Source: Dictyostelium discoideum
Lineage: Eukaryota
Length of the DNA: 64,000 bases
Direction: 5' to 3'
Assembly: GCA_000004695.1 (NCBI GenBank)
Contig: CM000152.2
Coordinates: forward strand, 4,992,001-5,056,000
The translations under genes were made by a program, and so were the position numbers. Below the pieces are notes generated by a model. It had not been told where the DNA came from. It saw nothing but the letters and a program-made list of their open reading frames with translations, and did not search any database. Positions 4,396 to 49,893 of this stretch are shown here, piece by piece (within the stretch, counting starts at the first letter, position 1; every line of letters begins with the position of its first letter).

Positions 4396-4439
<44 letters not shown>

Positions 4440-4803: not shown

Positions 4804-4835
<32 letters not shown>

Positions 4836-4860
4836 TTATAATAAAAGAAAGAGGGATTGA
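3492..4860 (+). CDS. La protein homolog (La motif + RRM, acidic tract, C-terminal basic/NLS tail)
   Basis: Exons 3492..3609 and 3833..4860, with a GTAAGT...ATAG intron (3610-3832). Splicing joins ...LIQTNQNDG to WIDLSIILEFQKIKS, restoring the La motif (FYFSDSNLRKDKFL...DGW). There is an RNP1-like KGFAFVEF segment, a poly-Asp/Glu tract and a KRKRD tail. Confidence 0.85.
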
Positions 4861-8988: not shown

Positions 8989-11811
8989 ATGGCAAAAAAG
9001 AAATTTGTAGAAAATACAAACTGGAAAAAGATTGACACAGATAATCAATTAATTTTTGAACAAGGTGGTTTTTTAGGTTTGGAAGAAATTGATCCAAATG
9101 ATTACTTTTTAACTGATAAAAATGTTGATAAAATTGAAAAACAACAAAAACAAAAACAAAAACAAGAACAAGAACAAGAACAAAAACCAACAAACAAATT
9201 AACAACAAAATCAACAACAAAATCAACACCAGTACAAAACAAGAATCAAAAACCAGTTGACAAAAAGAGAAAATCAAAAAAAGGTAATGATGATTCAGAT
9301 AATGAATATAGTGGTTATCAAGATGATAGCGATCAAGATGATGAATACTCTGCAGCTAAAAAGAAACCAAGAATTATAAAACCAACTGAAACAGTTGACA
9401 TGGGTACTGAATTATTAAATTCTTTTGTTGAAGGTACTGTCCATAATAAAAAGAAACAAAGAAAAGGAATAAAAGTTAAACAAATTATCGATGATAATGA
9501 TAATGATTTTGAAGATGAAGAGGAAGAAGTTAAACCACAACAAAAATTACAAAAACAAAAACAACAAGAACAAAAGCAAAAACAACCACAAAAACAACCA
9601 CAACAACCAAATAAAAAAAATAATAAAAAGGAATTACAAAAAGAAGAAGAGGAACAAATGGAGGAGGAGAAGGAGGAAGAAGAAGTACAACAAGAAGAAG
9701 AAGAAGAAAAAGAAATTAAAAAACCAATTAAAGAAAAAAAAGTTAAAACTCAAAAACAAATTGAAGCAGCTAAAAAAAATATTAATAAATTAGAAAAGAT
9801 TAAAAAGAGAAAAGAGATTTCAGAACAAAAAACAATTTCAAAAGAGGAACAAGATCAATTAGATATGTCAGAATGGAATAGTTATAATCTTGATCCATTA
9901 ATTCTTAAAGGTTTACGTTCATTAGGTTTCTCAAAACCAACAGAAATTCAATCATCTGTTATTCCAGTTGCAGTTTCATCAGGTTATGATGTTATTGGTG
10001 CAGCTCAAACTGGTTCGGGTAAAACTTTAGCATTTGGTATTCCAATGGTACAAAGAATTTTACAACATTTAAGAAAACATGGTCAAAATGTTGAAAATAA
10101 AGCTAACAAACAACAAAATGATAATGATGACGAAAATGAAGATGTTGAAGAGGAGGAGGAAGAAGAGGAAGAAGAGGGTAGATCAAAAGAATATAGAAAA
10201 TTATTTTCATTAGTAATTTGTCCAACTAGAGAATTAGCAATTCAAGTTACAAATCATATTAAATCAATTATTTCACATACAAATTTAAAGGTTATTTCAA
10301 TTGTTGGTGGTATGGCATCACAAAGACAACAAAGAGTTTTATCAAAGAGACCAGAGATTGTTGTTGCGACACCAGGTCGTCTTTGGGAATTAATTACTGA
10401 AGGTCATCAACATTTAGTTGAATTGGAAAGTTTATTATGTTTAGGTATTGATGAAGCAGATCGTATGGTTGAACAAGGTCATTTCGCAGAGTTGGAAAGT
10501 ATTTTAAAGACATTACCAATTCATCGTACAGCAATGTCAAAGAAAGAAAGATTAAAAAAGAAAGAAACCGAAGAAAAGCGTAATAAACGTAGAAAAGTTG
10601 ATAAATTAAATGACAAGGGTGAAATGATTAAAGGCGATCAAGATGATATGGATGATCAAATTCCAGATGAAGAAATGGAAGAATTAGAACAAGAGGAACA
10701 AAACCATCTTACAACTACACACAAAAGACAAACATTTGTTTTCTCTGCAACACTTGTAAACATACCAGGTGATGGTGCACCAACAAGTCAAAAAAAGAAA
10801 TATAGAAAATTGACACCAATTGAAAATTTAATTGAAAAAGTTCGTTTCCAACGTGACTATAAATTAATTGATGTGACTCAAAAGAGATTGACAGCAAAGA
10901 ATCTTTTAGAAACTAAAATCTTTTGTAATCTTGAAGAAAAGGATATGTATCTTTATTACTTTGTTGAAAGATATCCAGGTCGTACATTGGTATTTGTAAA
11001 TTCAATTGATTGTGCACGTCGTTTAATTCCAATTTTCAATATATTAGAGGTACCAGTATTTGCACTCCATGCACAAATGCAACAAAAGCAACGTTTAAAG
11101 AATCTTGATCGTTTCCGTACTTTAGATAATGTGGTTTTAATTGCAACCGATGTTGCCGCTCGTGGTTTAGATATTCCATTGGTTCAACATGTAATTCATT
11201 ATCAAGTACCACGTACAACTCAATTATACATTCATCGTAGTGGTCGTACTGCTCGTTCAGATCAAGATGGTATTTCAGTTGTATTGGTAACTCCAAAAGA
11301 ACGTCCACTCTATATTAAATTGGATTCTTCAATCGAGCATGATATTGGTAATTTCCCAACCGATATTCGTTATATGGAGGGTGTTAGAGATAGAATTGAA
11401 TTGGCAAAAGAAATCGATAAATTATCTCATCAATCATTAAAAGATAATAGAGAGAAAAGTTGGTTCAAAAAACAAGCTGAAGAAATGGATATCGAATTGG
11501 ATGGTGACTTTTTCGGTGAAAACTCTGATGATGAACAATCTGAAGATACTCGTATAGCTGAACAAAAGAAACAATTTAAATTAAAACAATTAAGAGCTCA
11601 ATTGAAACACTTACTCTCTCGTTCACTTTTACCAAGAGGTGTTTCTCAATCCTATATCACTGCTTCTGCAATTCAAGAATTAGAATCAAAGAGTCAATCT
11701 TCCGCTGCAACTGATTTCTCAAATAAAGCTAAAAATGTAATTGGTAAAAAAGCAAAACAACTTGCAATTGAAAATCATTCAAAATTTTTAACAAAAAATA
11801 AAAAGAAATAA
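8989..11811 (+). CDS. ddx24: DEAD-box ATP-dependent RNA helicase, DDX24/Mak5-like, 940 aa
   Basis: Single ORF with Q-motif/motif I (GAAQTGSGKTLAFGIPM), a long acidic insertion after motif I, then motifs PTRELA, DEADRM, SAT and HRSGRTAR. The N-terminal region is Lys/Glu/Gln-rich. The insertion between motif I and Ia is typical of DDX24/Mak5. Confidence 0.85.
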   Translation: MAKKKFVENTNWKKIDTDNQLIFEQGGFLGLEEIDPNDYFLTDKNVDKIEKQQKQKQKQEQEQEQKPTNKLTTKSTTKSTPVQNKNQKPVDKKRKSKKGNDDSDNEYSGYQDDSDQDDEYSAAKKKPRIIKPTETVDMGTELLNSFVEGTVHNKKKQRKGIKVKQIIDDNDNDFEDEEEEVKPQQKLQKQKQQEQKQKQPQKQPQQPNKKNNKKELQKEEEEQMEEEKEEEEVQQEEEEEKEIKKPIKEKKVKTQKQIEAAKKNINKLEKIKKRKEISEQKTISKEEQDQLDMSEWNSYNLDPLILKGLRSLGFSKPTEIQSSVIPVAVSSGYDVIGAAQTGSGKTLAFGIPMVQRILQHLRKHGQNVENKANKQQNDNDDENEDVEEEEEEEEEEGRSKEYRKLFSLVICPTRELAIQVTNHIKSIISHTNLKVISIVGGMASQRQQRVLSKRPEIVVATPGRLWELITEGHQHLVELESLLCLGIDEADRMVEQGHFAELESILKTLPIHRTAMSKKERLKKKETEEKRNKRRKVDKLNDKGEMIKGDQDDMDDQIPDEEMEELEQEEQNHLTTTHKRQTFVFSATLVNIPGDGAPTSQKKKYRKLTPIENLIEKVRFQRDYKLIDVTQKRLTAKNLLETKIFCNLEEKDMYLYYFVERYPGRTLVFVNSIDCARRLIPIFNILEVPVFALHAQMQQKQRLKNLDRFRTLDNVVLIATDVAARGLDIPLVQHVIHYQVPRTTQLYIHRSGRTARSDQDGISVVLVTPKERPLYIKLDSSIEHDIGNFPTDIRYMEGVRDRIELAKEIDKLSHQSLKDNREKSWFKKQAEEMDIELDGDFFGENSDDEQSEDTRIAEQKKQFKLKQLRAQLKHLLSRSLLPRGVSQSYITASAIQELESKSQSSAATDFSNKAKNVIGKKAKQLAIENHSKFLTKNKKK

Positions 11812-14669: not shown

Positions 14670-18931
<4,262 letters not shown>

Positions 18932-20148: not shown

Positions 20149-20945
20149 ATGAGTTTAGTATTTGATGAATATGGTAATCCATTTATTGTGATTAGAGATC
20201 AACAAGCCAAAGAAAGATTAAGAGGTATCGAGGCACACAGATCACATATTCTTGCAGCAAAGACCATTTCAAATATTATGAAATCATCATTAGGACCAAA
20301 AGGTATGGATAAGATGATGGTTAGTCAAGATGGTGAAGTATTAGTTACCAATGATGGTGCAACAATCCTCGAGAATATGCAAGTCGATAATCAAATTGCT
20401 AAATTAATGGTTCAATTATCAAAATCTCAAGATGATGAAATTGGTGATGGTACAACTGGTGTTGTCGTTTTAGCAGGTTCATTATTAGAACAAGCCGAAC
20501 AATTAATTGAAAAAGGTATTCATCCATGTCGTATCTATGAAGGTTATGAAACCGCTTGTAAAATTGCAACTGAACATTTGAAAACCATCTCTGACTCTAT
20601 CGAATTCAGTAAAGACAATATTGAACCACTCATCAAAACTGCAATGACTTGTTTAGGTTCAAAGATCGTCAATCGTTTCCATCGTCAAATGAGTGAAATC
20701 GCTGTTAAAGCCGTCATCTCTGTTGCAGATTTAGAACGTAAAGATGTTAACCTCGAAAATATTAAACTCGAAGGTAAAGAAGGTGGTAAATTAGAAGATA
20801 CTCAATTGGTTAAAGGCATCATCATCGATAAAGGTATCAGTCATCCACAAATGCCAAAAATTATTAAAGATGCTAAAATTTGTTTATTAACTTGTCCATT
20901 TGAACCACCAAAGCCAAAAACAAAAGTAAATTATCATTTTTTCTG

Positions 20946-20983
<38 letters not shown>

Positions 20984-21456
20984 AAAATTTGTTCAATTAT
21001 TATTATTACTAATACATTCATTATATAATTTTTAATATTTTATAGAATTCAATAGAAATTACAAAAGCAGAAGATTTCAAAGTTTTAGGTGAAATTGAAC
21101 AAAAATATTTTACAGATATGGTTGAAAAAGTTAAAGCTACAGGTGCAAATTTAGTTATTTGTCAATGGGGTTTCGATGATGAAGCCAATCATTTACTCCT
21201 TCAAAATAATTTACCAGCTGTTCGTTGGGTTGGTGGTTTAGATCTCGAAAAAATTGCTATGGCAACTGGTGGTCGTATCGTTGCTAGATTCGAAGATGTT
21301 AGCGCCGATAAATTAGGTAGAGCAGGTTTAGTTAGAGAAGTCGGTTTTGGTACAACTCAAGATCGTTACCTTTCAATTGAAGATTGCCCAAATACAAATG
21401 CAGTTACAATCTTTGTTAGAGGTGGTAATAAAATGGTAATTTTCAATTTAATAATT

Positions 21457-21539
<83 letters not shown>

Positions 21540-22049
21540 TAATTAATAATTAATTTATAACTAACAAAATAAATAATTTAAATACATAAATATATATAGA
21601 TTGTTGAAGAAGCTAAAAGAAGTATCCATGATGCATTATGTGTTACTCGTAATTTAATTAGAGATAATAGAGTAATTTATGGTGGTGGTTCATCAGAGAT
21701 TAGTTGTGGTTTAAAGATTTCAGCAATGGCTGATGATATTGCATCCATTGAACAATATGCCGTTAGAGCTTTTGCTGATGCTTTAGATGCTATTCCATTA
21801 GCATTGGCTGAAAATAGTGGTCTTCCATCCATCGAATCTTTATCAACCGTAAAGGCTATGCAAATTAAAGAAAAGAACCCACGTCTTGGTATCGATTGTA
21901 ATCATAGAGACACCAATGATATGAAGGCTCAACACGTTTTCGATACTCTTCCAGGTAAAACTCAACAATTCCTCTTGGCCAATCAAGTAGTTAAAATGAT
22001 TTTGAAAATCGATGATATTATTAAAATGGGTCCAGGAGCTGACGAATAA
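20149..22049 (+). CDS. cct5: T-complex protein 1 (CCT/TRiC chaperonin) subunit epsilon
   Basis: Exons 20149..20925, 21046..21435 and 21600..22049. The N-terminus [18 protein letters not shown]...GPKGMDKMM...TNDGATIL...[17 protein letters not shown] is near-identical to CCT5. Exon 2 has [27 protein letters not shown] and exon 3 has [30 protein letters not shown]. Intron 2 (21436-21599) contains an (AAT)25 tract. Confidence 0.95.
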
Positions 22050-22228: not shown

Positions 22229-24793
22229 TTAAAAATTATTATTTTGTGGAATATTTATTTTTTTAATTAAATTACCAAAGTTTAAACCAGTTGGAACATG
22301 CATTGAAAAATCTATAATGGTATCATAATAATTTAAATTTAAACTATTTAAAAAATAATCTAAAATATTAAAATTACCATATAAAAAAGAAGTACTAATT
22401 ATTGAAGAAATTAAATTTGGGTCAAAAATTTTTTGAAAAAGATTATTTTGATAGAGTACCATATATTTAATTAAATACAGATTACCGTATTCAGCACAAC
22501 CAACCATTATAAATTTCAATAGATCTAAATATTTAATTGGATTTATTTTTTCAAATTTAAAATATAATTCTATAATTTTTAAAAGACCATTTAAATTATT
22601 TAATCTTGCAATTTCATTTGTAATTTTATTAATTATCCCATTTGATGGTATTGTTGTGATTGTTGAAAAATATTCTCCAAATTTTCCAATGCATTGAAGT
22701 GTTTCAAGGTAGACTAAACCATGTTTTTTTGATTCTAATGTATCTACATTTAACCGGATTTCATATAACCATTTACAAATTTTATAAGCTAATAAACCTT
22801 CATTGTTTTTAAAAGGGTTTGTAAATACTTTAATACTAAATTCATCATCAGTTTTAAGTAATCTCGATCTAAAAGGTTCATAGAATATTGATGGTGGAAA
22901 TTCTAATGATAGAGGTAAATTTTTAATTATAAATTTGATTTCGTCCATGTACAAATGTTTATCAAATGATTTATTAATGCAACCTATAATGTCAACATTT
23001 GATAAATCAAATACCTCTGGGTTACTAATCATATAACAGAGTGTTTTTAAAATTTTACCATTTAAACAATACCGATTGAAATCTTTAAATTCTCTATTTG
23101 TTAAAGATTTCCATATATTTTGTTCCTTTGGAATTAATTGTTGATACCTTTTTATCATATCAATTCTTCCAAATTGAAAACAAGTTGCAATTGAAGTTTT
23201 ATTAAAAAAAACATTTAATATTGGATTTGACCAACAATAGTTCAACATTTCAATAGATTTTATTGAATAAACTAATTTTATTTGATTTTCAATTGAAGCA
23301 GAAACATGATTGTATAATTTATTATTAAATACATATTCCAATAATGATATATCATTAAAATGAATCAATAAACAAATTATTAAAAAATGATCTATAATTT
23401 GATTATATTGACCATCTGGCTTTAAAACTTGATCAATAAATGAAAATTGATGTTCTTTATTATCTTTGCAATATTTAAATAATAGATTCATATTTTCTTT
23501 TTCTACATATAAATTGAAAATATCATCTACCTCAATTTTTTGATTTTTAAATAAACAATAATCAAGATTACCAAACTTTAATGACTGTTTAATGTACTTG
23601 TTTTGATGAATTGGTGCACTATTTAATTTACTTGGTAAACCATTCTTTAAAATTCTTTTATACTTTTCATTTTTTTTTTCTTCTTCATCTTTTTGTTGTT
23701 GATTATCATTCTTTTCATTTGAAATTTGATATTTTAAATAGTGAATTAAAATTGGTTTTTGAATTACAAGTTGATATGTTGATAAAATTAATTTTAAATA
23801 TTTATTTTCAATTATTGTATTTCTTGAATTATGTATTAGTTTTTTTAATCTTGTTTTTAATTTTAATTTATTAAATGGATTATTTGTTTCAATTAATTTT
23901 AAATTTTCATTTATTTTCTCTAAATGCTTATTTAAAGTATATGGTACATATTTAATATTATAAAAAAAACTGCATGCATCAATGGTGTTTTGAATTGTAA
24001 AATTATTATAAAATGGGTCATCATCAAATAGTTTTTTTGGTATTATAAACTTGTATTTATTTCTTATTCTTTCCTTTTTAATTTGATCATTTTCAAGTAA
24101 ATAATTTAAAATTTTAAATTTTAAATTTATTTTTTGTGGATATTGTTCAATAAAGTTTAAAATCTCTGTTATTGTATATTTTTCAAAATGGTTTTGATTA
24201 TTATTATTATTATTATTATAATTATTATTATTGATTATGTTGTTTTCATTTGTTGTTAATGTTGATAAATATTTTAAAATTTTTAATGAAGATTTTGATT
24301 TAATATAAGTTGGTAATAAAGCATTTATTAATTGGTTTGTTGTCATACTTTTATTTATATATTCTTTGTCAATAATTAATTTTAATATTAAAATGTTATC
24401 ACTTTTTATAGCAATTTCTGCAAAATTTAAAAAATTAAAATATTCTTTATACCTATTAAATAATAATTGGTAAAATGATAAAATCAATTCAATTGTTTCT
24501 TCATTTGCTTGATCACTATTATTATATTGATGTATTTGTTTATCTTTATTTTTAAAGTTAATTAAAATAAATAATTTTTGAATTGTTTTTGAAAATGTTT
24601 CTCTAAATTTATTATTATTATTATGATATGAGAAAATTAATGTTTTTCCATTATGTACCAATTTAATTAATTCTTTAATTTTATTAAATTTTATTAATAA
24701 ACTAATATGATTATTATCATCTTTAGCATATTCAAATATTTTTTTAAATAAATATTTGTTTCTAAAAACTTTAAAAAATAATTGTTCATTCAT
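22229..24793 (-). CDS. Asn-rich hypothetical protein with degenerate ankyrin-like repeats, 854 aa; paralog of the 38913-43144 gene
   Basis: Single ORF. The N-terminus MNEQLFFKVFRNKYLFKKIFEY matches the N-terminus of the 1096-aa ORF (LFFQIWRNIYLKRFILSQI). There are repeated ankyrin-helix-like units (ISLLEYVFNNKLYN, GNLYLIKYMVLYQNN, GNFNILDYFLNSLNLN) and polyN tracts. Confidence 0.6.
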   Translation of the reverse strand: MNEQLFFKVFRNKYLFKKIFEYAKDDNNHISLLIKFNKIKELIKLVHNGKTLIFSYHNNNNKFRETFSKTIQKLFILINFKNKDKQIHQYNNSDQANEETIELILSFYQLLFNRYKEYFNFLNFAEIAIKSDNILILKLIIDKEYINKSMTTNQLINALLPTYIKSKSSLKILKYLSTLTTNENNIINNNNYNNNNNNNQNHFEKYTITEILNFIEQYPQKINLKFKILNYLLENDQIKKERIRNKYKFIIPKKLFDDDPFYNNFTIQNTIDACSFFYNIKYVPYTLNKHLEKINENLKLIETNNPFNKLKLKTRLKKLIHNSRNTIIENKYLKLILSTYQLVIQKPILIHYLKYQISNEKNDNQQQKDEEEKKNEKYKRILKNGLPSKLNSAPIHQNKYIKQSLKFGNLDYCLFKNQKIEVDDIFNLYVEKENMNLLFKYCKDNKEHQFSFIDQVLKPDGQYNQIIDHFLIICLLIHFNDISLLEYVFNNKLYNHVSASIENQIKLVYSIKSIEMLNYCWSNPILNVFFNKTSIATCFQFGRIDMIKRYQQLIPKEQNIWKSLTNREFKDFNRYCLNGKILKTLCYMISNPEVFDLSNVDIIGCINKSFDKHLYMDEIKFIIKNLPLSLEFPPSIFYEPFRSRLLKTDDEFSIKVFTNPFKNNEGLLAYKICKWLYEIRLNVDTLESKKHGLVYLETLQCIGKFGEYFSTITTIPSNGIINKITNEIARLNNLNGLLKIIELYFKFEKINPIKYLDLLKFIMVGCAEYGNLYLIKYMVLYQNNLFQKIFDPNLISSIISTSFLYGNFNILDYFLNSLNLNYYDTIIDFSMHVPTGLNFGNLIKKINIPQNNNF

Positions 24794-25016: not shown

Positions 25017-28000
25017 TTAAAATAAAATGAATGAAATTATGGTTATAATTTTTAATAACATAAATGGAGCCAATAGTTTTGATGAAATCGATAGTTCATC
25101 ATCGTCTGTTGTGGATGGTTGGTTTGTTGGATTACTAGTTGTTGATTGACCACCTGTTGTAGATTGACCACCTGTTGTAGATTGACCACCTGTTGTAGAT
25201 TGTGATTTATAGGTAACTGTTGTTGAAACTTCAAATCCACCTATTTTTAATAGCAAATTAAAGTTACCACCTGGTTTGGCAGGATAACTGAATGTAATTG
25301 AATTGGTAGTTAACTCAATAATATCACAATTATAACCATCAATTGTTAATACTGCTAATGATTTATCTGAAACATGATATTCACCATTGAACTTAACATC
25401 CCCACCTGTTGAATTTAATTCACTTGTTGTAATTAAAATTGATTTTAAATAAATAAAGGTCACACTATTTGAAGTTTGACCTCCTGATTCAACTATTACA
25501 GTAAATTCATCACCAATTAACAAATCAGAAGTAGGTGAATTATCGTTAAAGGTGATTTCATCATTACCATTATTTAAGCTTGCAACACTTGATTCAAATC
25601 CTTCACCATTAATATAAACTCTATTTGGTGTAAAATAATCAAACCAAGATCCTTTGAATACAATTATATCAGATGATGACCAATAATAACTATTTAAAAG
25701 TGTTGGAGAAGGTGGCGCAACGACATTTAACATTGTGAAATAATATAAACCTCCAATATTAATTAATGTTTCTTGACTACCAATTGATAATGGAGGATAA
25801 GAGAATTTAATATTGGTTGGTGTGATTTTAATTACTTTACATTCTAAACCATTAATTGATAGTGAAACTATTGAATTATTTGATGTACCGAATTTACCAG
25901 CAAATAAAGCACCTACACTACCAAATGAATAAAGATTTTCCTCATTTGACAAGTAAATTTCTTTAATATAATTGAATGAAACAATATTTGAAACCAATCC
26001 ACCTGTTTCTATTTGAACTGTAAATATGTCACCTTCAACAATGGATAAATTTTCTATAGAAAATGAAATAGCATCTGAAACTTCAGATCCAAAGGCAAGT
26101 GTTGATGTAAAAGTTGCACCATTAATAATTATATTGTTTAGATTATCATAACTAAAAGCAGTACCATAGATAATTATCTCAGTTTTATCTGATGACCATT
26201 TATAATTGTTAAAAATTGTTGGGTTTTCTGGGACGACATATTGAACGGTAGTAGTATTTTCAAAACCACCAACATTAATTAAAAGTGGATATTGGCCTGG
26301 TGATCCACTTAATGATGGATATCTAAATGTAATTAAATTTAAAGAAACTGAATTTACTGAACAGCTACTTCCATTGATTGAAAGTGTAACAAGACTTTTA
26401 TCTGTAACGCCATACATGCCAGTGAATGAAACTATGCCACCTGTTGTATTTAGATCTTTTACATCAACTTTAATTGAATCAATATAATTAAATGTAATTA
26501 CATTTGATGATTGACCTTGAACCATTACTTTGATGGTAAATGCTTGACCAATTGAAAGTGAACTTGTTGGTGAAAAACTTGATAAACTTATACTATCATA
26601 ACCTGGATTTGTTGAAGATGCAACTGCACTATTAACTTGATATACATCATCATTGAGAACTATAACGTTTGAATCATAATATCCAAACCATTTACCATTT
26701 ATTATTAATCTATCATCGGTTGTCCATTCATATTTATAAATAACTTGTGGTGGAGGTGAAGTTATATAGGTAACATTTGTTTTATATTCGAATCCACCAA
26801 CAAAATAAATTAATTGATAGGTACCTGCTCCATTAACTGGGTATTGGAATTGGATGGTAGTTGGAGAAATTGAAATTACAGAGCATGGTACATCATTGAT
26901 TGAAAATGTGACAATACTTTTATCTGAAGTACCATAGGATCCTCCAAAACTAATAATACCACCAATCGATTGCAAAGGTAATACATCAATAGTAACTGAT
27001 TTAATAAATATAAATTGAATCAAATTAGTTATTTGACTTCCAATTTTAACGTGTACTTGGAATGGAGATCCAACCACAAGTGATTTTGGTGTCGAATTTA
27101 ATAATTTGATTTCATCTGGGTAAGAATAATCCAAGCTTGATGCAGTTGCTGGTGTTGAATCATAATCGATTCCATCAATGTTAATAATATTTTTATAATA
27201 ATAAGTAAACCATTTACCATAGAATGTTAATGCAAGATCACCATTTCCAAGTGTTGTCCAATAGTATTTATTCATTAGTGTTGGAGTGGGTGTATTTATA
27301 ATTGTAATTACTTTCGAGGATCTAATTGTGCCAATAACTAAAGTCAATGTCAAGGTTCCTGGTCCTGATCTATATGGATATTTAAATGAGATCTCAGTTG
27401 GTGATAATGATGTAATGGGGATATCTAATTCATCAAATTTTAATGTTGCGATGGTTATATTTGAAGTTGAAAAAGAACCTGGGTATGTCATTTCCCCTCC
27501 AATGGTATATAAATTATAGGCCATCATTGAAATTGGTTTGATTAGATAAAAGGTTGCACTGGCTGATCTTTGACCCATAGTTGTAACTGATACAGTAAAT
27601 AATGCACCTTGAGGAATTGATGAATGTGCAGAGGCTGGTAAAATCAAATTATCATATCCTGGTTCTGTTGATGAAGCTGTTGCTAAAATAGAAAATGGTG
27701 TAGAGTTTATTTCAACTATATTTGGCTCTACATAGCTAAATGATGAACCAAAAATCATCAATACAACCGCACCATTTGAAAGTGTCCAATCAAATTTATT
27801 TAATATAGTTGGGGCAGGTGCTTGTGAAATGGTAACTTGTGTTGTAAATTCATAACTACTTTGTAATACTAAAACCAAATCATATGTGCCAACTGACAAA
27901 ACTGGGTAAGTGAATGTAACTGATGTTGGATTAACTGCGTTAACTGTACACACAGAACCACCAATGGTAATTGAAACAAGTGAAGGATTTCCCACTTTAA

Positions 28001-29688
28001 ATATACCAGCAAAAGTAACTACTCCTCCAATTGTAGATAATGGTTTTACTGTCATTGAAACCTCTTTATAGTAAGTTAAAGATACTTGATTTGATACTTG
28101 AGATCCAACTTTAACAGATAAGGTGAATGAGGTGGCTTCTGTCATTCCATTGAATGGTGTTGAACTTGAAAATGTAAATTGATCTTGAGATGGGTTTTTG
28201 GTTGATTGAATTGCTAGAGTTTGGTTTGATAGTACACTATTTATAATTGCAATATTTTGATAAACATAACTAAAACCTGTACCACTTATTACCATTAAGT
28301 AATTACCTCCAACTTGAACATAACGATATTTTGGTAAAACAGTTGGTATTTCATAACTATATGTAAAAGTTGTTGATTGTAAGTTATAACCAAATTGAGC
28401 AACCAAATCCTTTCCAGTTCCGTCACCTTGTGGAATTCTTAAAACTATTTGGGTATTTGGAATTATTGAATCAATGGTTACAACATTTGAAGATGGTGTT
28501 GGTGATAGTGTATTAAAAGTCCAACCAAAATCTACACCAGTAATGGTAATAAATGAAACATTATTTGTTTTAATAAGTGGGATATTTTTGTTGAAAGACA
28601 ATGTTGGACAAGTACTTGGTGGTGTTGATGATAATGTAAAATCGTTAAAATTATTTGGAAGGATTATACCGCCTATGTCATTTGGTGGATAACATTTGAA
28701 ACAAGATGGTACATTTCCTGATAATTTGTTAGAATGGATTCTAAGAACATTTGGATTAAATTTACAATAAAAGTTATTTGTAAATGGAATTGACCCAGTA
28801 AACTCTGAATTAATAAGGGAAAAAGATTTAACTTTAGAATGTTGAACTGTGCTTGGGGTTGGTAAAGGTTGGACGTAATTATTGCCTTCAATTCTAACAC
28901 TTTCAAGATTTGTATAATCTAGGTTGTTCATTATTAATAAATGATTTTTAAAATTACTAATATTTAAATTAGAAATTAGTTTTAAATTAAAAGGATTACC
29001 ATTCGGGTTATTTGTTATTGTTTATATTAGATGGTTAAAATACATACATGTTAGAACTTTCTGGGAATTTAATACAACCAAATGTGGCGCATGAATCTAA
29101 AAATCCTACATCTGTAAAATCCCTATTTATTTTTTTGTATAGAAAAAAAAAATTAATATTTAAGAAATAGAAAAAATATATCATTATTACTATAAATTTA
29201 TACATACATTGTTGTACCCTTTGTATATTTTGATAAATCTATCAAATTATTTTGTGGAAATTTTAAACCTCTTCCCTCAATGGTGAGATAATTGAGCATT
29301 GGTAAATTTAAAACGGTATCTGGAAATTCCCATTTTTGAATTTTATCTTGGTCAGTATATCTAAAGTAGAGAGCTAAATCTGAAATAGGTAGGTATCCTA
29401 AGTAAGGGAAAGCAAAATTAGTGTATTGAGAATCTGACTTATCATTATTTATAATTAAATAGACTGCTCCCAAATTTGGACAAATTTCAATATTATTTGG
29501 AAGTGGTGCATAAAAAGTAACTATCATGTAAACAAATGACAATCCTGGCTGGCATGATGACAATGTTACAGGGTATTTAAATCCATTTGCTGAGTCTTCA
29601 ATATTCAAATTTTGAATTTTACCACTACTAAAGAATAGCTCTGGAAGTGGAACTGATTTTTTTAAAAAAAAAAAAAAAATATTAATAC

Positions 29689-29771
<83 letters not shown>

Positions 29772-30329
29772 TATTATTATTTTATACACATGAACATACC
29801 TGACATTTTTTGAAAAATAACATCATTTAATGATGGTGGTAATTGAATATTATTTGGAATTGCTTGATTTACATGATTAATTGATCTATTATAATTAATT
29901 ATAATATTTAAATTTTATTAATTCAAACTTTAATTAGATTTATATTTTTTTATTTAATTTAATACAAAACATTAGTACTTACAAGAAATTAAGTTTTGTT
30001 AATTTATTTATATCTGTCCAAAAAGCTGTTGAAACAAAGAAATTAGGACCAATGGTAATACTTTTTAAATCAGTAAATAAACCAAAACTTGTTGTTATTA
30101 CCACACCTGAGCCACTGCCAGTGTTTATTCCTGTCAAAATTAAATACCCATTATTACCATTATCACAAGTAAAAGCACTATTAGTGCATGGTGTTTGAGT
30201 ATTGACCCCATACAATTGATTTAATAATTGTTGTGCTGCAATGTTTTGATTATTATTTAAATCAAGAGCATTATTTAATGAAATAAAACTTATAAAAATA
30301 ATTATTAGAATATTAAAAATGTATTTCAT
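25017..30329 (-). CDS. Large secreted/cell-surface protein: signal peptide, N-terminal leucine-rich repeats, about 8 tandem IPT/TIG-like Ig-fold repeats, Thr/Gly-rich stalk, C-terminal hydrophobic anchor; about 1630 aa, 5 exons (tgr/lag-like)
   Basis: Exons on minus: 30329..29983 (MKYIFNILIIIFISFISLNNA signal), 29885..29800, 29652..29208, 29122..29048 and 28956..25017. Donors are GTAAGT, GTATGT, GTATGT and GTATGT. Intron 2 contains a poly(T) of about 78 nt (29691-29769). A roughly 150-160-aa unit recurs (Y.WT...G....F.G..F.Y...NI..I.......A.SST.PGYD...L). The protein ends STTGGQSTTGGQSTTGGQSTTSNP...LLAPFMLLKIITIISFILF. Confidence 0.7.
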
Positions 30330-31431: not shown

Positions 31432-33642
31432 TTAGTTTAAACTTAAAACGTATTGTTCAAAGTTCTTAAAGTTAATTGAACCTAAACCTGAGGCAGCATC
31501 ATAACCAGTGGTAGCGGTGTAACCATATTGACAACAGTAAGCTCTGTTACAGTTGTTTGCACCAGTGGTAATATCATTGAAAACGTTTGGTTGTTCTTTG
31601 GCAGCTTGGTATAATAATGGATTTAAGAAACCGAGGGTTGGTTTACCAGCACCAATTAATTTATCATTAATTAAAGAGATCATACCAGCAAGAGTTGGTG
31701 ATGAACATGAGGTACCATCAACACTTTCTAAGGCGCATGGACAGGTATTTGAGGTGAGAGTGTTTGGAACGGCGATTTCATAAGCATGACCAACAAGAGT
31801 AAGATCTGGATAGAATCTATTGGTGGCATTGTATGAATATGATGGTGGGAGAGTACCACTTTTGATGTAAGTGGCAACGGCATCAGCTTGGTATGATGGT
31901 TGAGCTTGAGTGATAGCAACACCACCTCCACCAGTAATGATGGCGCCAGTTGCGACTGAACAAACAATTTCTGGTTTGGTAACATCAGTGATTTGAGTGG
32001 CACCAACAGAGGTGATGAATGGTGATGAAGCTGGATAATCTGGTTGGAAGAGGGTACCAGCATCTTGATCATAAGAGTAACCAACGATCTTGAAACCAGC
32101 ATCACTATCAGAGTATGGTTTTAATTTGTCACAAGTACAGCTAGAGTAGATGTGGTAGTTTTGTTGAGTATCTTGTTCGAGGGCGACTTGACATTTAGAG
32201 TTTGAGCTAACAAATTCATTGATACCATTGACGATATTTTGGTTTTGTAACATAGATTGACAAGTGTTACTTTCTGAACCCATTGGGAAGAAACATTGAG
32301 TACCGTTGCTTTCCATGATGGTAATCATTGGACATTGAGAAGATTTATGGTTACATCCACCTAATGGGCAGTATTGTTTGGTACCATCGATTGGACAGTT
32401 ACCAGAGGCAGCACCAAAACTTGGTGCACCATCATCACCAGATGAAACAAAGACTGAAACACCACGTAAACCGACTTTTTGGAGTTCAACATTTGAACGA
32501 GCAACGTAGACAACAGAGTCAATACCAAGAGTAGAACAGCTGTTTGTAATTTCACATTGTTCAACTTCAGCCCAACCGTATGAGATTGAAGCAATCTTTG
32601 GAATTGGGTTGTATTGTTGGATGGCAGTAGCCCAATCAATGATCCATTCACCATTACCTGATGAAAGGAAGAGAGTGGTGATATTGTTACCGATGGCAGT
32701 CATATATTGAACGTCGAGATCAGATTCCATTTGATCACAGTTTTGGGCAATACAGTTTTGACCAACATTTTTAACTCTAACAGTTGATGAATCAATACCG
32801 AATTTTTGATCAAAGAATTGTAAGGCACCTGATGAATAGAAATCAGAGAAGGCAGCAATTGATTGGAAGTTTTCTGATTCAACACCAATTTGACCGGTTG
32901 GGATACCATAGTATTGTTTAATGACTGCTGGAGTGATTGAAACGGTTGAACCTTGAACTTGCTTCTTGGTGGCTCTCATTGATTCACTCATTTTGTTATC
33001 TTCAATGAAATCTGATAAACCTAAAACTAAATCAACTTTTGCTAAAACATGCATTGGCATAGATGCTTGACCTACAACTCTAATTCTCTTAAGAGCAGTA
33101 CGGCTTGATGAGTAGTGAGCAAATGAAGTTTCGAATAAAGTTGAAGCTTTACCAACATTGGTTCTAACTTGGATGAAATCAGAGTGAACGATCATTTCAT
33201 TCTTTGATAAACCATTGTCAATTAACCAATTAACAACAACTTTAACATCTTTTGGTGATGGTGCAACAATTGAATCAATTTCTTCTTTTGATAAAAATTT
33301 ACCATAGTTTTCTGATTTTGGTGATGAAACATCCCAGAATTTCTCTTCTAAAATATCTAAATTTCTCTTTTAAATTTTAAAAAATAAAAAATAAATATTA
33401 GAAATTTATTATTATTTTTAAAAAAATAAGTATAATAATAAAAAAAAATTTAAATTTAAATAACTTACTTGTTTTAATAAAATTTTGAATTGAACTAATT
33501 CATATGATTTGGCTAATTTATTTTGAACAAAATGAGCTGGTGCAGAAGTGACATCAGCAATTGGGACACGTTGGACACTGATTGCTGATGCGAGTGCAAC
33601 AATGCTTAATAATAATAATAATAATGAAGTCTTTGAAATCAT
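31432..33642 (-). CDS. Tripeptidyl-peptidase I / sedolisin (peptidase S53) family secreted protease with pro-domain; about 701 aa, 2 exons
   Basis: Exons on minus: 33642..33469 (signal MISKTSLLLLLLSIVALASA) and 33366..31432, with a GTAAGT...AAAAG intron. It has the pro-kumamolisin activation domain and an S53 catalytic region with the SGTSCSSPTLAGMISLIN serine motif. tpp1-like. Confidence 0.85.
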
Positions 33643-38912: not shown

Positions 38913-43144
<4,232 letters not shown>

Positions 43145-46563: not shown

Positions 46564-48197
46564 AAAATAAAACCAAGAACAAAATCTAAAATATTTTTTA
46601 ATTTTTAATTTTTAATTTTTAATTTTTTTAAAAAATAAAAAATAAATAAAATAAAGCATGGAAAAGTGGATCAGGATCAGTTTCATTACCATTATTAAAT
46701 GTTAGATCAGATTATATTTTTAGAATTTGGTCACCAGTTGTAAATTCATCATCACCACAATTAAATATTTTCCCAAATGTTACATTAACATTATTGGCAA
46801 CATCAACAGCAGTAACATTTAAGAATCCAAATGCACCAGATAAGTCATATTTAGCATTTACAAATAGTACAAGTGAAATGAGATTAATGTGGATTAGTGG
46901 TACTAATGATTCACCAATTTGTTATTATTCAAGTGATCCAAATTCATTAAGCAACTCTGTGACAGGTATAACAGTGACCTATGCAATTAGTGATATGTGT
47001 GCATCACCAGCCAACGAGACTAATTACTTTAGAGATCCAGGTTACATTCATGATGTTGTCATGACAGGATTATTACCAAATACAACCTACTATTATTATT
47101 TTGGTAGTGAAAATGATGGTATGTCAGCTATTCAATCATTTTTATCACAACCAGATAATAGCGACCCATCAAATTCCGAAGCATTTGTAATTGGTTTTGG
47201 TGACCTTGGTACCACATTTCCTTATACAGCATTGGTCGAAACTCAATATCCAGCAAGTGAAACAATTGCAGCAATTTCCCAAACCATTAGTGCACCATAT
47301 GGTTCATCACCATTTGTTAGAGCAATGGGTAAACAAAGTAATTCAATCGATAGATTAGATCCAAGTCAAACACCATTTTGGAGTGTTCATCACATTGGCG
47401 ATATCTCTTATGCTAGAGGTAAAGCATTCATTTGGGATTACTTTATGGATTCTATGCAACCAATCGTCTCAAAAGTACCATACATGGTATCGATTGGTAA
47501 TCATGAATACGATTTCATTGGTCAACCATTTGCACCATCTTGGTCAAACTATGGTAGTGATAGTGGTGGTGAATGTGGTGTACCATACAGTAAGCGTTTC
47601 CATATGACAGGTGCAGAGGATTCAACTCGTAACCTTTGGTTCTCCTATGAGAATGGACCAATTCATTTCACTGTAATGTCAGCTGAACATGATTTCCTTC
47701 CAGGTAGTCCACAATTTGAATGGTTAAATAATGATTTAGCATCAGTTGACCGTGAAAAAACTCCATGGGTAATCTTTAGTGGTCATCGTCCATTATATAC
47801 CTCTGCATTACCAGAGGATTCAATTGGTTCAATCACAGCTCTTCGTGAAGCTATTGAACCATTATTCCAAAAGTATGATGTTGATATGGCATTATGGGGT
47901 CATGTTCACATCTATGAACGTACTTGTGGTTTCATTGGTAATTTCACTTGTGCTGATAATGATAATGATGGTACCGTTCATGTTATCATTGGTATGGCTG
48001 GTAATACTTACTCTGTACCTTGGGAAGGCTCTGATATTAGCTCTGGTAATGGTCACGAAGATGAACCAGAATGGTCAATCTTTAGAAGTATCTCTTATGG
48101 TCATGTAAGATTCTATGCAAATACAACCTCACTTTATTTTGAATTTGTTGGTAATCATAGATCAATTGTTCATGACTCTTTTTGGTTAAATAAATAA
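46245..48197 (+). CDS. Purple acid phosphatase (metallophosphoesterase) with signal peptide and N-terminal PAP fibronectin-like domain, 2 exons
   Basis: Exons 46245..46488 (signal MIKSFYCNVLIVLLIGLIGCIFA) and 46657..48197, with a GTAAGT...AAAG intron containing A39. The phase-1 junction gives ...SQSS-S-WKSGSGSVSLPLLNVRSDY. All PAP metal-ligand motifs are present: GDLG, GDISYA, GNHEYD, GHRPLY and GHVHIYER. Confidence 0.85.
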
Positions 48198-48352: not shown

Positions 48353-48770
48353 TTATTTCTTTTTTGTTGAAGATGGTTTTAAAGAATGAGGACCAATACT
48401 GCTTTTTGGTTTAGTATTTGGTGTTGTTTTCTTTAATTTTTTAGCATTATCAGCATTTCTAATACTTTCTAATAAACTATTTCTACTAGATGATGATGGT
48501 GGTAATTTTGATGAAGAAGGTGGCGGAGGAGGTGGTGGCGCAGATTTTGGAGGAGGTGGAGGTGGTGGTGGCGTAAATGTTTGTAATATTGGTGTTTTTG
48601 GTGGTGATGATATTAAACTTGAATTTGGTGAAATTGTTGAAGTTGATGGTGATGATGGATTATTATTATTTGATAAATTAAAACTATTATTTAAAAGTGA
48701 AGTTGAAGAAGGTAATTTCATACTTTTTCTTTTATCGTCATTACTTGATATATTATTAAATGTATTGCTA

Positions 48771-48801
<31 letters not shown>

Positions 48802-49893
48802 TATTATTTGATGATGATGATGATAATTTACTTATATTACTTGAAGAGAATGAACCTGATAAAGATACTTTTGGTGATTCGAATTTATTTGAATTATCTT
48901 TAATAAAAGTTAATTGAGATTTCTTTAATTTACCATTTTGTAATGATTGTTGTTCAATTGTTGTTGTAACTTCAAACCAAGGATTCTTTACTAATTCCTC
49001 AAGGGTTGGAGTTTTTTCTGAAAAGATTTGTTGTAATAATAAAAATACTTTATCAGGGAATAATGGTATAAAACTATTGATATTTGAATGATCTCCTAAC
49101 GGTATACCAATGATCATTTCAAATAAACAATGACCAAAACAAATTACCTCTAAATTGTCTTTAAATGATTGTGGTAAACCAATACCATAAATATAATCAT
49201 TGAATAATGGTTTCATACCTAATAAACAATTTTCAATATCAACTAATTGACAAGTATCATTTGATTGATTAATTAAAATATTTGATAAATGTAAATGAGA
49301 GAATTGAATACCTTTACTCTTTAAATATAATAATGATTCCAATATTTGTTTACAATATTTTTGAATTGATTTAATTGGTAAAACAGATTGACTTTGTGAT
49401 GATGATGATGAAGATGAGGATGAAGATGACGATGATTTTGGTTGTTTGTAAATATATTTTGTATCATATGGTGATAATGGTTTTGATTTATATACTTGAT
49501 CACGAAGACTACCTTGTTTGAAGAATGTACGAATTACCAATATCTTATCATTGGCACCTGATACCTCAACGTTTATTGGTGTTAAAATATATGGATGTTT
49601 AAGTGAGAGTAGAGTTTTTTCAAACTTTCTCTTCTTCTTTTCATTTGACATTGACCATGGACATGATGATGGTGTTGGTGTAATTATTGATACTACGCAT
49701 TCTTCTCCACCACCCATTGAATTCTTTGCCATACAATATGATTTTCTTAATCCATGTTTAGTATGTCCAATATCCTGTAATGGTTTTGAATATTCAAATT
49801 GTGCTGTTGATCTTAATTGAAATTGTGCTACTAATGCATCAGTTTCTAAAATATATATATAAATAATTAAAAAAAAAAATATTAATATATTTT

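What the first reader, a model, noticed from the sequence alone, without database searches (positions are those of the whole stretch)
25017..30329. Giant LRR + 8x IPT/TIG-repeat surface protein (tgr/lag-like) with near-identical internal repeats, adjacent to a secreted sedolisin
The rebuilt 5-exon model gives about 1630 aa: signal peptide, LRRs, then a roughly 150-160-aa unit repeated about 8 times, each starting Y.WT...G and containing F.G..F.Y...NI..I......ASST.PGYD. A (STTGGQ)3 stalk and a C-terminal hydrophobic anchor follow. This architecture is characteristic of Dictyostelium allorecognition/adhesion tgr-family proteins, whose repeats evolve rapidly. The first introns include a 78-nt poly(T).
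Basis: partly seen in the sequence, partly recalled or inferred. Interest (0 to 1): 0.5.

Follow-up and report, generated by a model that had tools for sequence, protein, structure and literature searches.

The report
Giant LRR-plus-TIG surface glycoprotein gene
This is a real, intact Dictyostelium discoideum gene for a very long cell-surface protein: a leucine-rich-repeat head on a rod of 13 Ig-like domains with a lipid-anchor-type tail. It belongs to a small amoeba-specific family and shows none of the tested defining features of the tgr kin-recognition genes, so it is interesting but fairly ordinary.

Summary
The window is D. discoideum AX4 chromosome 3. The five-exon, 1630-aa minus-strand model (30329..25017) holds. 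All splice sites are GT..AG, the junctions match D. citrinum protein models, and an AX4-like assembly annotates a 1630-aa product over the same span.

Architecture:
- signal peptide
- one Ig-like domain
- six (not eight) tandem units of 172-178 aa, each a divergent TIG (A) plus a canonical TIG (B)
- (STTGGQ)x3.6 stalk
- a hydrophobic C-terminus with no cytoplasmic tail, which looks like a GPI signal

The units are only 30-45% identical, so they are not near-identical. The array is old and is conserved unit for unit in D. citrinum.

About 20 protein clusters, all from group-4 Dictyostelium, share the head, TIG and tail layout. Most carry a single A-B unit.

The tgr reading is not supported. There is no transmembrane segment plus tail and no neighbouring TIG gene. 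Synonymous divergence is ordinary and omega is 0.33-0.56. An MK-like test is neutral. Direct comparison with Tgr, gp138 or gp130 sequences was not possible.

Most likely function: a GPI-anchored adhesion or recognition protein that holds an LRR binding head about 50 nm from the membrane.

The parts
25017..30329 (-). Whole gene from ATG to stop. Five exons: 30329-29983, 29885-29800, 29652-29208, 29122-29048, 28956-25017. Product 1630 aa.
   Evidence: Model built; all introns are GT..AG and AT-rich. The junction peptides match the independently annotated D. citrinum proteins P0001/P0002. An AX4-like assembly (L003) annotates a 1630-aa product over the same start and stop, with identical exons.
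30267..30329 (-). Signal peptide, aa 1-21 (MKYIFNILIIIFISFISLNNA)
   Evidence: Hydrophobic N-terminus with a maximum 12-residue Kyte-Doolittle score of 3.2. The same ORF in D. citrinum begins MKYNFNILIIFFIYLFSFNSA. The cleavage site is inferred, not predicted with a tool.
28590..30266 (-). LRR head, aa 22 to about 440, spanning exons 1-5. It has an N-cap helix with two conserved Cys, about 13 irregular LRR turns of 19-30 aa, and a Cys-rich C-cap.
28353..28577 (-). First Ig-like ('pre-TIG') domain, aa 445-519
   Evidence: Six predicted beta strands in the AF2 model, block-mean pLDDT 64-87. It is matched neither by Pfam nor by the A/B domain HMMs.
25191..28352 (-). Six tandem A-B units, aa 520-1573. 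U1 28352-27819, U2 27818-27291, U3 27290-26757, U4 26756-26229, U5 26228-25713, U6 25712-25191. Each unit is a divergent TIG (A, about 90 aa) followed by a canonical TIG (B, about 84 aa).
   Evidence: Period of about 176 aa in self-BLAST of fragments; alignment. HMMs find exactly 6 A and 6 B domains in strict alternation. Five of six B halves score above the Pfam TIG gathering cut-off. A halves are sub-threshold in the target, but TIG is the only recurrent Pfam hit across 21 A domains (5 of 21, best E=3e-6).
25080..25190 (-). Ser/Thr/Gly/Pro-rich stalk, aa 1574-1610, including the STTGGQ repeat (18 bp x3.6 at 25138-25202, which runs slightly into unit 6)
   Evidence: TRF result. The 60 residues before the tail are 58% S/T/P/G. 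The repeat has one copy fewer in strain L004 and is longer in D. citrinum P0002. O-glycosylation is inferred.
25020..25079 (-). C-terminal hydrophobic segment, aa 1611-1630 (KLLAPFMLLKIITIISFILF), followed directly by the stop codon at 25019-25017. It looks like a GPI-attachment signal.
   Evidence: Mean Kyte-Doolittle score 2.13 over the last 20 residues, with no residues after it. The segment is preceded by small residues (DDDELSISS). The same feature occurs in 19 of 25 family members. GPI anchoring is inferred from the general rules for GPI signals and was not tested.
29691..29769 (+). 79-nt poly(T) run (poly(A) on the coding strand) inside intron 2 (29799-29653)
   Evidence: TRF result. 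The run is 42 nt shorter in the otherwise exon-identical assembly L003.

Best explanation
The locus encodes an expressed-type, selectively maintained cell-surface glycoprotein. It belongs to a family restricted to group-4 Dictyostelium.

Shown:
- The protein has a signal peptide and a head of about 420 aa that folds as an irregular LRR solenoid of about 13 turns with Cys-containing caps.
- One Ig-like domain follows, then six tandem pairs of TIG domains. That gives 13 Ig-like domains in a row.
- A short Ser/Thr-rich stalk and a terminal hydrophobic segment with no cytoplasmic tail complete the protein.
- Ordinary family members have the same head, one A-B pair and the same kind of tail. In this gene the A-B pair was amplified sixfold within the gene. 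That happened long before the D. discoideum / D. citrinum split, and the copies have diverged independently since.

Inferred:
- The terminal segment is a GPI-attachment signal, so the mature protein of about 172 kDa plus glycans sits in the outer leaflet and cannot signal by itself.
- The 13 Ig-like domains form a semi-rigid rod of roughly 45-55 nm. The rod holds the LRR head, the likely ligand-binding surface, well above the glycocalyx.
- The protein therefore acts as an adhesin or recognition receptor for another cell, a prey particle or matrix, either by binding alone or through a transmembrane partner.
- The family probably corresponds to the gp138/gp130 glycoproteins of D. discoideum. This is from my memory of the literature and was not tested here.
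For: Gene model and maintenance:
- Model built; annotated at the same length in L003.
- The exon-5 ORF is intact in AX4, four discoideum-clade isolates and two D. citrinum strains, and an ortholog exists in D. dimigraforme.
- Omega is 0.33-0.56, well below 1, over about 1300 codons.

LRR head:
- Generic LRR proteins match profile positions 312-400 in 3-9 stretches.
- UniProt names a D. purpureum relative as a plant-type LRR N-terminal domain protein.

TIG domains.

Six A and six B domains, also present in both D. citrinum orthologs.

Age of the array: each unit pairs with its positional ortholog at 100% bootstrap, and the six units form one clade (92%) apart from the paralogs' units.

Family:
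- 69 hits among 1.84 billion representatives. About 20 cover the whole head, and all of those are group-4 Dictyostelium.
- Shared layout and C-terminal hydrophobic end.
- Paralogs align collinearly with aa 319-700, and their single unit aligns with each of the six units.
Against: - No experimental or expression data were available. Neither the gene's dictyBase identifier nor its AX4 protein record could be retrieved.
- GPI anchoring rests on sequence inspection only. A tail-less transmembrane anchor is not excluded.
- The fold of the A domain was not modelled. It shows no profile similarity to the B domain (hhalign probability 1.8%) and no PDB sequence hit.
- The LRR model is of the D. citrinum ortholog (78% identical), not of the window protein itself.
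- No ligand is known.
- The elevated dN, the neutral MK-like test and the absence of the gene at the syntenic site in D. firmibasis would also fit a dispensable protein under weak constraint.
Confidence: 0.7

Rival explanations
1. It is a tgr (tiger/lag) family member that works in kin or allorecognition like TgrB1/TgrC1. Polymorphic TIG ectodomains would bind a partner on neighbouring cells and gate cooperative development.
For: - It has repeated IPT/TIG domains in a large ectodomain.
- It is the fastest-evolving gene of its neighbourhood, with dN about twice that of the next fastest neighbour.
- Some annotated tgr genes lack a transmembrane domain, and some are syntenic single-copy singletons. 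Membership by annotation therefore cannot be excluded.
Against: - There is no transmembrane segment followed by a cytoplasmic tail. Tgr proteins are described as transmembrane with signalling cytoplasmic domains.
- The LRR head defines a different, small family.
- No partner TIG gene or cluster lies in the 64 kb window.
- Synonymous divergence between isolates equals that of the neighbours (dS 0.066 against 0.03-0.10), omega is below 1 in every domain, and the MK-like test gives p=0.92.
- The two D. citrinum strains show the same pattern.
Confidence: 0.08
2. It is a giant paralog of the gp138/gp130 surface glycoproteins and shares their biology. That biology is gamete (sexual cell fusion) recognition or vegetative adhesion and particle uptake. 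The longer stalk would tune its reach.
For: - The family layout found here matches what I recall of gp130 (768 aa, GPI-anchored, about 40% similar to gp138) and gp138: signal peptide, about 740-770 aa, Ser/Thr/Pro stalk, GPI-like end.
- gp138 is cited as a cell-fusion glycoprotein encoded by several genes.
- gp130 knockouts are reported to have reduced adhesion.
- The paper tool replaces the word gp138 with 'xxxxx' wherever it occurs. This is an oddity of the tool and is not evidence.
Against: - No gp138 or gp130 sequence could be obtained, so homology is untested.
- Chia et al. 2005 is not held in the paper library.
- Protein searches that might have returned named AX4 paralogs returned nothing.
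- The AX4 paralogs that were identified (DDB_G0269740, DDB_G0284073) are named only 'hypothetical' or 'IPT/TIG domain-containing'.
Confidence: 0.35
3. It is a weakly constrained, possibly dispensable or decaying gene whose fast protein evolution reflects relaxed selection rather than function.
For: - Omega rises to 0.50-0.56 on the shortest time scale.
- The MK-like test is neutral (alpha about 0).
- The gene is absent at the syntenic site in D. firmibasis.
- The stalk repeat number varies between strains.
Against: - A 4.9-kb ORF with four conserved introns is intact in every discoideum-clade and citrinum genome examined.
- Omega is 0.18-0.57 in each of the 15 segments tested, and no domain reaches 1.
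- All six units are retained position for position.
Confidence: 0.1

Closest known systems
Dictyostelium group-4 LRR-TIG proteins with GPI-like tails (for example DDB_G0269740/Q55D91, DDB_G0284073/Q54Q70, D. purpureum F0ZHV2, and many 'hypothetical proteins' of D. citrinum, D. cf. discoideum, D. dimigraforme and D. firmibasis)
   Same: The approximately 500-aa head plus first Ig-like domain aligns end to end (E from 1e-96 to 1e-22). These proteins have the same A-B TIG pair, the same Ser/Thr/Pro/Gly stalk and the same terminal hydrophobic segment.
   Different: Those proteins have one A-B pair or none and are 410-880 aa long. This gene and its orthologs have six pairs and are 1624-1733 aa long.
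gp138 (GP138A/B/C, sexual cell-fusion glycoprotein) and gp130 (adhesion and macropinocytosis glycoprotein) of D. discoideum
   Same: From memory of the literature, these are GPI-anchored, heavily glycosylated surface proteins of about 740-770 aa that form a small family. That description fits the paralogs found here.
   Different: The relationship was not tested, because the sequences were not retrievable. If it holds, this gene is more than twice their length because of the sixfold TIG-pair amplification.
Tgr (tiger) proteins TgrB1/TgrC1 of D. discoideum
   Same: Large glycosylated ectodomains built from IPT/TIG (Ig-like, E-set) domains, in social-amoeba surface proteins that evolve quickly.
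   Different: Tgr proteins are single-pass transmembrane proteins with a cytoplasmic tail, often sit in head-to-head pairs or clusters, and tgrB1/C1 are extremely polymorphic. This protein has an LRR head, no tail, no partner gene and ordinary synonymous diversity.
LRR-Ig ectodomain proteins of animals (LINGO-1, LRIG1) and Listeria internalins
   Different: Sequence identity is only 9-17%. The resemblance is one of fold and layout, most likely convergent. The animal proteins are transmembrane and have one to three Ig domains, not 13 TIG-type domains.
Plant LRR receptor ectodomains and PGIP
   Same: They are the best Foldseek matches: GSO1, BRL2, PSKR, BRI1, HAESA and PGIP. The last turns carry the plant-type motif L..L.L..N.L.G.IP, and the N-cap is a helix plus two Cys. 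UniProt labels a D. purpureum relative as having a plant-type LRR N-terminal domain.
   Different: There is no kinase or transmembrane segment. The repeats are irregular (19-30 aa), TM-scores are low (0.2-0.37), and Pfam LRR models do not reach threshold in the target.

Membership tests
tgr (tiger) family | Ectodomain built of repeated IPT/TIG / Ig-like E-set domains | tested here: met
   PF01833 hits the whole protein at E=1e-19. Five of six B halves score above the gathering cut-off. A halves are weakly TIG-like.
tgr (tiger) family | Single-pass transmembrane segment followed by a cytoplasmic (signalling) tail | tested here: not met
   The only C-terminal hydrophobic segment is the last 20 residues, followed directly by the stop codon. 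A few annotated tgr genes also lack a transmembrane domain.
tgr (tiger) family | Sequence or phylogenetic affinity to named Tgr subfamilies (A-T) | not testable with these tools
   No Tgr sequence could be retrieved, and the protein searches were exhausted. Indirect evidence: the head profile finds only about 20 clusters, none named tgr.
tgr (tiger) family | Location in a head-to-head pair or cluster with other tgr genes (common but not universal) | tested here: not met
   No other ORF in the 64 kb window matches the family proteins or the A/B domain HMMs. The neighbours are a sedolisin and DDB_G0281851.
tgr (tiger) family | Extreme allelic polymorphism (a feature of tgrB1/C1/B2 only) | tested here: not met
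   AX4 against two tropical D. discoideum isolates gives dS 0.066-0.072, equal to or below the neighbours, and omega 0.50-0.56. The MK-like test gives p=0.92. No sample of closely related strains was available.
Leucine-rich repeat (LRR) solenoid fold | Right-handed solenoid of 20-30-residue turns with a parallel beta sheet on the concave face | tested here: met
Leucine-rich repeat (LRR) solenoid fold | Match to curated LRR sequence models | tested here: not met
   No Pfam hit in aa 22-434 at E<=1. Five paralogs give only weak hits to LRR_8, LRR_14 and similar models, E from 3e-4 to 7e-3. Generic LRR proteins do match profile positions 312-400.
Dictyostelium LRR-TIG family with GPI-like tail (DDB_G0269740-like) | End-to-end match of the approximately 500-aa head plus first Ig-like domain | tested here: met
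   hmmsearch of 1.84 billion representatives gives full-length matches in about 20 clusters, all group-4 Dictyostelium.
Dictyostelium LRR-TIG family with GPI-like tail (DDB_G0269740-like) | A-B TIG pair, Ser/Thr-rich stalk and terminal hydrophobic segment | tested here: met
   Domain HMMs and tail statistics across 25 members; collinear tblastn alignments.
gp138 / gp130 glycoprotein family | Sequence homology to GP138A/B/C or gp130 | not testable with these tools
   The sequences were not obtainable, the key papers are not held, and the term gp138 is masked in the paper tool. The link is a lead from memory only.
GPI-anchored proteins | N-terminal signal peptide, plus a C-terminal signal made of small residues at the attachment site, a short spacer and a terminal hydrophobic stretch without a cytoplasmic tail | tested here: met
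   The sequence ends ...DDDELSISS-KLLAPFMLLKIITIISFILF-stop. This end is conserved in the orthologs and in 19 of 25 family members. The test was by inspection and hydropathy only.
GPI-anchored proteins | Lipid anchor demonstrated (PI-PLC release or labelling) | not testable with these tools
   This needs an experiment.

The most novel reading that the evidence does not exclude
The protein would be an amoebozoan counterpart of LRR-Ig recognition receptors. In this reading a lineage-restricted, fast-evolving LRR head is displayed about 50 nm from the membrane on a rod made by sixfold amplification of a TIG pair. It would serve specific cell-cell recognition (gamete or species recognition in the sexual cycle, or recognition of prey or partner cells) through a still unknown ligand and a transmembrane co-receptor. 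That would make it a second recognition system in Dictyostelium, independent of tgr.
Probability: 0.15. Interest if true: 0.6.

Novelty: new member of a known kind. Interest (0 to 1): 0.3.

Why it matters
The main outcome is a correction. A large TIG-repeat gene that looks like a tgr kin-recognition gene at first reading shows none of the tested tgr-defining features and belongs to a separate family.

That family is small and restricted to group-4 Dictyostelium. Its members pair an LRR head with TIG domains and a GPI-type tail. LRR-plus-Ig ectodomains are a common solution for adhesion and recognition in animals and in bacterial internalins. A case in social amoebae, probably of independent origin, with a length series from no TIG pair to six, offers a natural test of how stalk length affects surface recognition.

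If the family does include gp138 and gp130, the LRR-head model gives a concrete structural hypothesis for two adhesion and fusion glycoproteins that, as far as I recall, still lack a structural model. The gene itself is uncharacterised and is not surprising to a specialist.

Tried and rejected
- **Whole-protein self-BLAST.** It returned only the identity hit. It was replaced by fragment BLAST.
- **The search for homologous proteins.** The full-length query returned only the two D. citrinum orthologs. The alignment query A1 and a concatenated four-paralog query returned nothing, not even their own sequences. The named AX4 paralogs, gp138, gp130 and Tgr proteins could therefore not be fetched.
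- **Spliced window sequences.** I worked around this with the D. citrinum ortholog plus window exon fragments (A2, A3).
- **First AF2 run.** With five near-identical rows the model was poor (pLDDT 51) and was discarded.
- **afdb50 fold library.** It was unavailable, so no UniProt names came from structure.
- **A versus B domain homology.** hhalign probability was 1.8%, and PDB profile searches found nothing significant.
- **Exact look-ups.** The 1630-aa and 1624-aa products were reported as not in the collection, although L003 and L004 annotate products of those lengths.
- **Literature.** Neighbouring DDB_G identifiers and paralog accessions gave no papers. Chia et al. 2005 is not held. The PNAS tgr paper has no supplement text held.
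- **Positive selection.** No domain reaches omega of 1. The highest 60-codon window gives 1.11 in one comparison and 0.84 in the other. The MK-like test is neutral.
- **Linkage with the sedolisin.** The adjacency is conserved. In D. firmibasis, however, the sedolisin is present without this gene, so I found no evidence of a functional link.

Full report
**Source and gene model**

The window is Dictyostelium discoideum AX4 chromosome 3. The 854-aa ORF at 24793..22229 is exactly DDB_G0281851/Q54TD2. The three-exon gene at 20149..22046 encodes exactly the CCT epsilon subunit Q54TD3.

The finding lies on the minus strand. Joining five exons gives a 4893-nt CDS and a 1630-aa product: 30329-29983, 29885-29800, 29652-29208, 29122-29048 and 28956-25017. 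All four introns are GT..AG, 85-147 nt long and 5-20% GC.

Three independent lines support the model.
- The two D. citrinum proteins returned by the homology search (P0001 and P0002, 76% and 74% identical over 97-98% of the query) read straight through all four junctions.
- An AX4-like assembly (L003, GCA_054883475.1) annotates a 1630-aa product over the same start and stop. Its exons are identical to the window.
- Other isolates annotate products of 1624-1630 aa at the same position.

**The repeats**

BLAST of 80-aa fragments against each other shows offsets at multiples of about 176 aa. The units start at aa 520, 698, 874, 1052, 1228 and 1400 and end at 1573. HMMs built from the two halves find exactly six A domains and six B domains in strict alternation. 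They find nothing else in the 64 kb window.

Pairwise identity between units is 30-45% at protein level (mean 35%) and 48-56% at DNA level. Tandem Repeats Finder sees only the 18-bp stalk repeat and the homopolymers. The title's '8x' and 'near-identical' are therefore wrong. The correct description is six old, diverged units of two domains each.

Pfam TIG (PF01833) hits the whole protein at E=1e-19. It hits five of the six B halves above the gathering score. The A halves reach only 13 bits in two of six. Across 21 A domains from the family, TIG is the only recurring Pfam family (5 of 21, best E=3e-6). I read A as a divergent TIG. Its fold was not modelled, and it shows no profile similarity to B.

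**The N-terminal head**

A profile of the head, built from the D. citrinum orthologs plus window exon fragments, was searched against 1.84 billion representative proteins.
- It found 69 hits.
- About 20 cover the whole 500 positions.
- The rest match only positions 312-400, in 3-9 stretches each. This is the behaviour of generic LRR proteins.

With a 21-sequence family alignment, AlphaFold2 models the ortholog head at pLDDT 91 and pTM 0.87. A first attempt with five near-identical rows had reached only pLDDT 51.
- Foldseek against the PDB returns plant LRR-receptor ectodomains (GSO1 E=7e-8, BRL2, PSKR, BRI1, HAESA), PGIP and internalins.

Mapped onto the window protein, the head has these parts:
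- an N-cap helix and two nearly invariant Cys;
- 12-13 turns of 19-30 residues, the last of them with the plant-type motif;
- a Cys-rich C-cap;
- a six-strand Ig-like domain at aa 445-519.

The LRR claim is thus supported by fold, not by curated sequence models.

**The C-terminus**

After unit 6 comes QSTTGGQSTTGGQSTTGGQSTTSNPTNQPSTTDDDELSISS, then KLLAPFMLLKIITIISFILF, then the stop codon. The hydrophobic stretch is the end of the protein. It has no cytoplasmic residues after it and is preceded by small residues. This is the usual form of a GPI-attachment signal. The same ending occurs in the orthologs and in 19 of 25 family members. GPI anchoring is an inference from general rules and was not tested.

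**The family**

All full-length head matches come from group-4 Dictyostelium: D. discoideum, two 'cf. discoideum' isolates, D. citrinum, D. dimigraforme, D. firmibasis and D. purpureum. The AX4 members seen are DDB_G0269740 (755 aa) and DDB_G0284073 (880 aa), named only 'hypothetical' or 'IPT/TIG domain-containing'.

The common layout is signal peptide, LRR head, Ig-like domain, one A-B pair, a Ser/Thr/Pro/Gly-rich stalk and a terminal hydrophobic end. A few members lack the A-B pair. The paralogs align collinearly with aa 319-700 of the target, and their single A-B pair aligns with each of the six units. No paralog lies in the window.

**History of the array**

In a neighbour-joining tree of A-B units, every unit of the window protein pairs with the unit at the same position in D. 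citrinum, with 100% bootstrap support. The six units form one clade (92%), separate from the paralogs' units. The amplification therefore happened within this gene lineage after it split from its paralogs. It long predates the discoideum/citrinum split, and there has been no homogenisation since.

Both D. citrinum orthologs have six A and six B domains. D. dimigraforme has a 1733-aa ortholog. D. firmibasis has no homolog between cct5 and the sedolisin.

**Rate of evolution and polymorphism**

Flanking loci were fetched from two D. citrinum strains, an AX4-like assembly, two tropical D. discoideum isolates, two possible cryptic species, D. dimigraforme and D. firmibasis. The isolates' genome-wide divergence from AX4 is described.

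Nei-Gojobori estimates for exon 5 (about 1300 codons):

| Comparison | dN | dS | omega |
|---|---|---|---|
| AX4 vs D. citrinum | 0.14-0.16 | 0.41 | 0.33-0.38 |
| AX4 vs tropical D. discoideum isolates | 0.036-0.037 | 0.066-0.072 | 0.50-0.56 |
| AX4 vs possible cryptic species | 0.045-0.066 | 0.12-0.18 | 0.36-0.39 |

In the comparisons among discoideum-clade isolates, neighbouring genes have equal or higher dS, about half the dN or less, and omega of 0.02-0.27. Against D. citrinum the neighbours' dS is more mixed, at 0.11-0.44. The two D. citrinum strains differ at dN 0.032 and dS 0.096, against dS of 0.04-0.11 in the neighbours.

Per-domain omega is 0.18-0.57, with no domain above 1. A rough McDonald-Kreitman table (Pn 79, Ps 87, Dn 125, Ds 141) gives p=0.92 and alpha of about 0.

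The gene is the fastest-evolving protein of its neighbourhood. The signal is elevated amino-acid replacement under purifying selection. It is not the excess synonymous diversity expected of a balanced recognition locus such as tgrB1/C1. The caveat is that only distant isolates were available. No sample of closely related strains could be examined.

**Comparison with tgr**

The papers read here define tgr genes as follows:
- they encode transmembrane proteins with TIG/IPT and E-set repeats, whose cytoplasmic domains signal;
- many tgr genes sit in head-to-head pairs or clusters, though some are single-copy and syntenic;
- tgrB1, tgrC1 and tgrB2 are extremely polymorphic.

This gene meets the TIG-repeat criterion. 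It fails on the transmembrane segment and tail, on pairing, and on polymorphism. It also has an LRR head whose profile recovers only a small, different family.

Direct sequence comparison with Tgr proteins could not be done. The homology tool returned nothing useful, and no Tgr sequence was otherwise accessible. I therefore do not file the gene under tgr. Membership by annotation cannot be strictly excluded.

**Comparison with gp138 and gp130**

From memory, gp130 (Chia et al. 2005) is a 768-aa GPI-anchored glycoprotein about 40% similar to the gp138 family of sexual cell-fusion glycoproteins (Fang et al. 1993; Aiba et al. 1997). The latter two are cited. The layout of the 740-770-aa paralogs fits that description.

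I could not obtain those sequences or papers, so this remains an untested lead. I also note, as an oddity of the tools and not as evidence, that the paper search replaces the word 'gp138' with 'xxxxx' everywhere.

**Mechanism**

*Shown:* the domain order, the LRR fold of the head, the TIG nature of the B domains, the conserved six-unit array, the tail-less hydrophobic end, and purifying selection.

*Inferred:* the mature polypeptide is about 172 kDa and is GPI-anchored. The 13 Ig-like domains form a rod of roughly 45-55 nm, at about 4 nm per domain. The Ser/Thr stalk is O-glycosylated. The LRR head is the binding surface.

Without a cytoplasmic domain, the protein can act only as an adhesin or through a transmembrane partner. 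What it binds is unknown.

**Verdict**

This is a real gene that was correctly delimited. Its repeat structure was partly mis-described, and it was assigned to the wrong family. It is an uncharacterised, unusually long member of a known kind of Dictyostelium surface glycoprotein, and its interest is modest.

Noticed in passing
window 29691-29769 (intron 2); L003: The 79-nt poly(T) run is 42 nt shorter in the otherwise exon-identical AX4-like assembly GCA_054883475.1. This is either real homopolymer length variation or an assembly or sequencing difference.
   Followed up: partly
L001 10476-10838 (D. citrinum ortholog): The deposited D. citrinum protein models start MIGLLMC|ALDLNN, from a tiny upstream exon. 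The ORF itself holds a conserved signal-peptide start, MKYNFNILIIFFIYLFSFNSALDLNN, so the deposited first exon is probably mis-called.
   Followed up: partly
window 22229-24793 (-), DDB_G0281851; L001, L002, L009: The 854-aa gene with no Pfam domain that lies directly downstream of the target is present in the discoideum clade. In D. citrinum and D. dimigraforme a 241-aa CfaA_B_C gene occupies that position instead. This is lineage-specific gene turnover next to the target.
   Followed up: partly
L004 8365-9188: One tropical D. discoideum isolate (GCA_054859355.1) has an extra 243-aa gene (Pfam BB_PF) inserted between the target and the DDB_G0281851 ortholog. In AX4 the gap there is only 224 bp.
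   Followed up: no
L008 (D. firmibasis, between cct5 and the sedolisin): No homolog of the target lies at the syntenic site. Two unrelated plus-strand genes of 652 and 587 aa lie there instead. Whether the gene sits elsewhere in that genome was not checked, although D. firmibasis does have a family member (P0017).
   Followed up: partly
P0003 (D. purpureum F0ZS29, 1909 aa): This protein model contains three stretches matching the LRR head and three B-type TIG domains, and it lacks a hydrophobic end. It is probably a tandem array of family genes fused by annotation.
   Followed up: no
window 31731-32975 (-), inside the sedolisin exon: Out-of-frame ORFs that overlap the sedolisin coding exon give apparent omega of 2-4 in the neighbour comparisons. 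These are artefacts of the mechanical ORF pairing, not genes.
   Followed up: yes
rest of the window: Other genes seen: a GATA zinc-finger protein (192-1121 +), an RRM protein (3826-4860 +), BOP1 with WD40 (6691-8502 +), a DEAD-box helicase (8989-11811 +), a myotubularin-like phosphatase (15380-18931 +), cct5 (20149-22046 +), a purple acid phosphatase (46794-48197 +), a kinase fragment (48353-49732 -) and an ALMT-type transporter (55304-58507 +). Long ORFs at 39854-43144 (-) and 60782-62758 (+) have no Pfam hit.
   Followed up: no
tools: Three tool oddities. The paper tools replace the word 'gp138' with 'xxxxx'. The search for homologous proteins returned no hits for queries that contained database sequences verbatim. 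Exact look-ups of the 1630-aa and 1624-aa products reported them absent, although L003 and L004 annotate products of those lengths.
   Followed up: no
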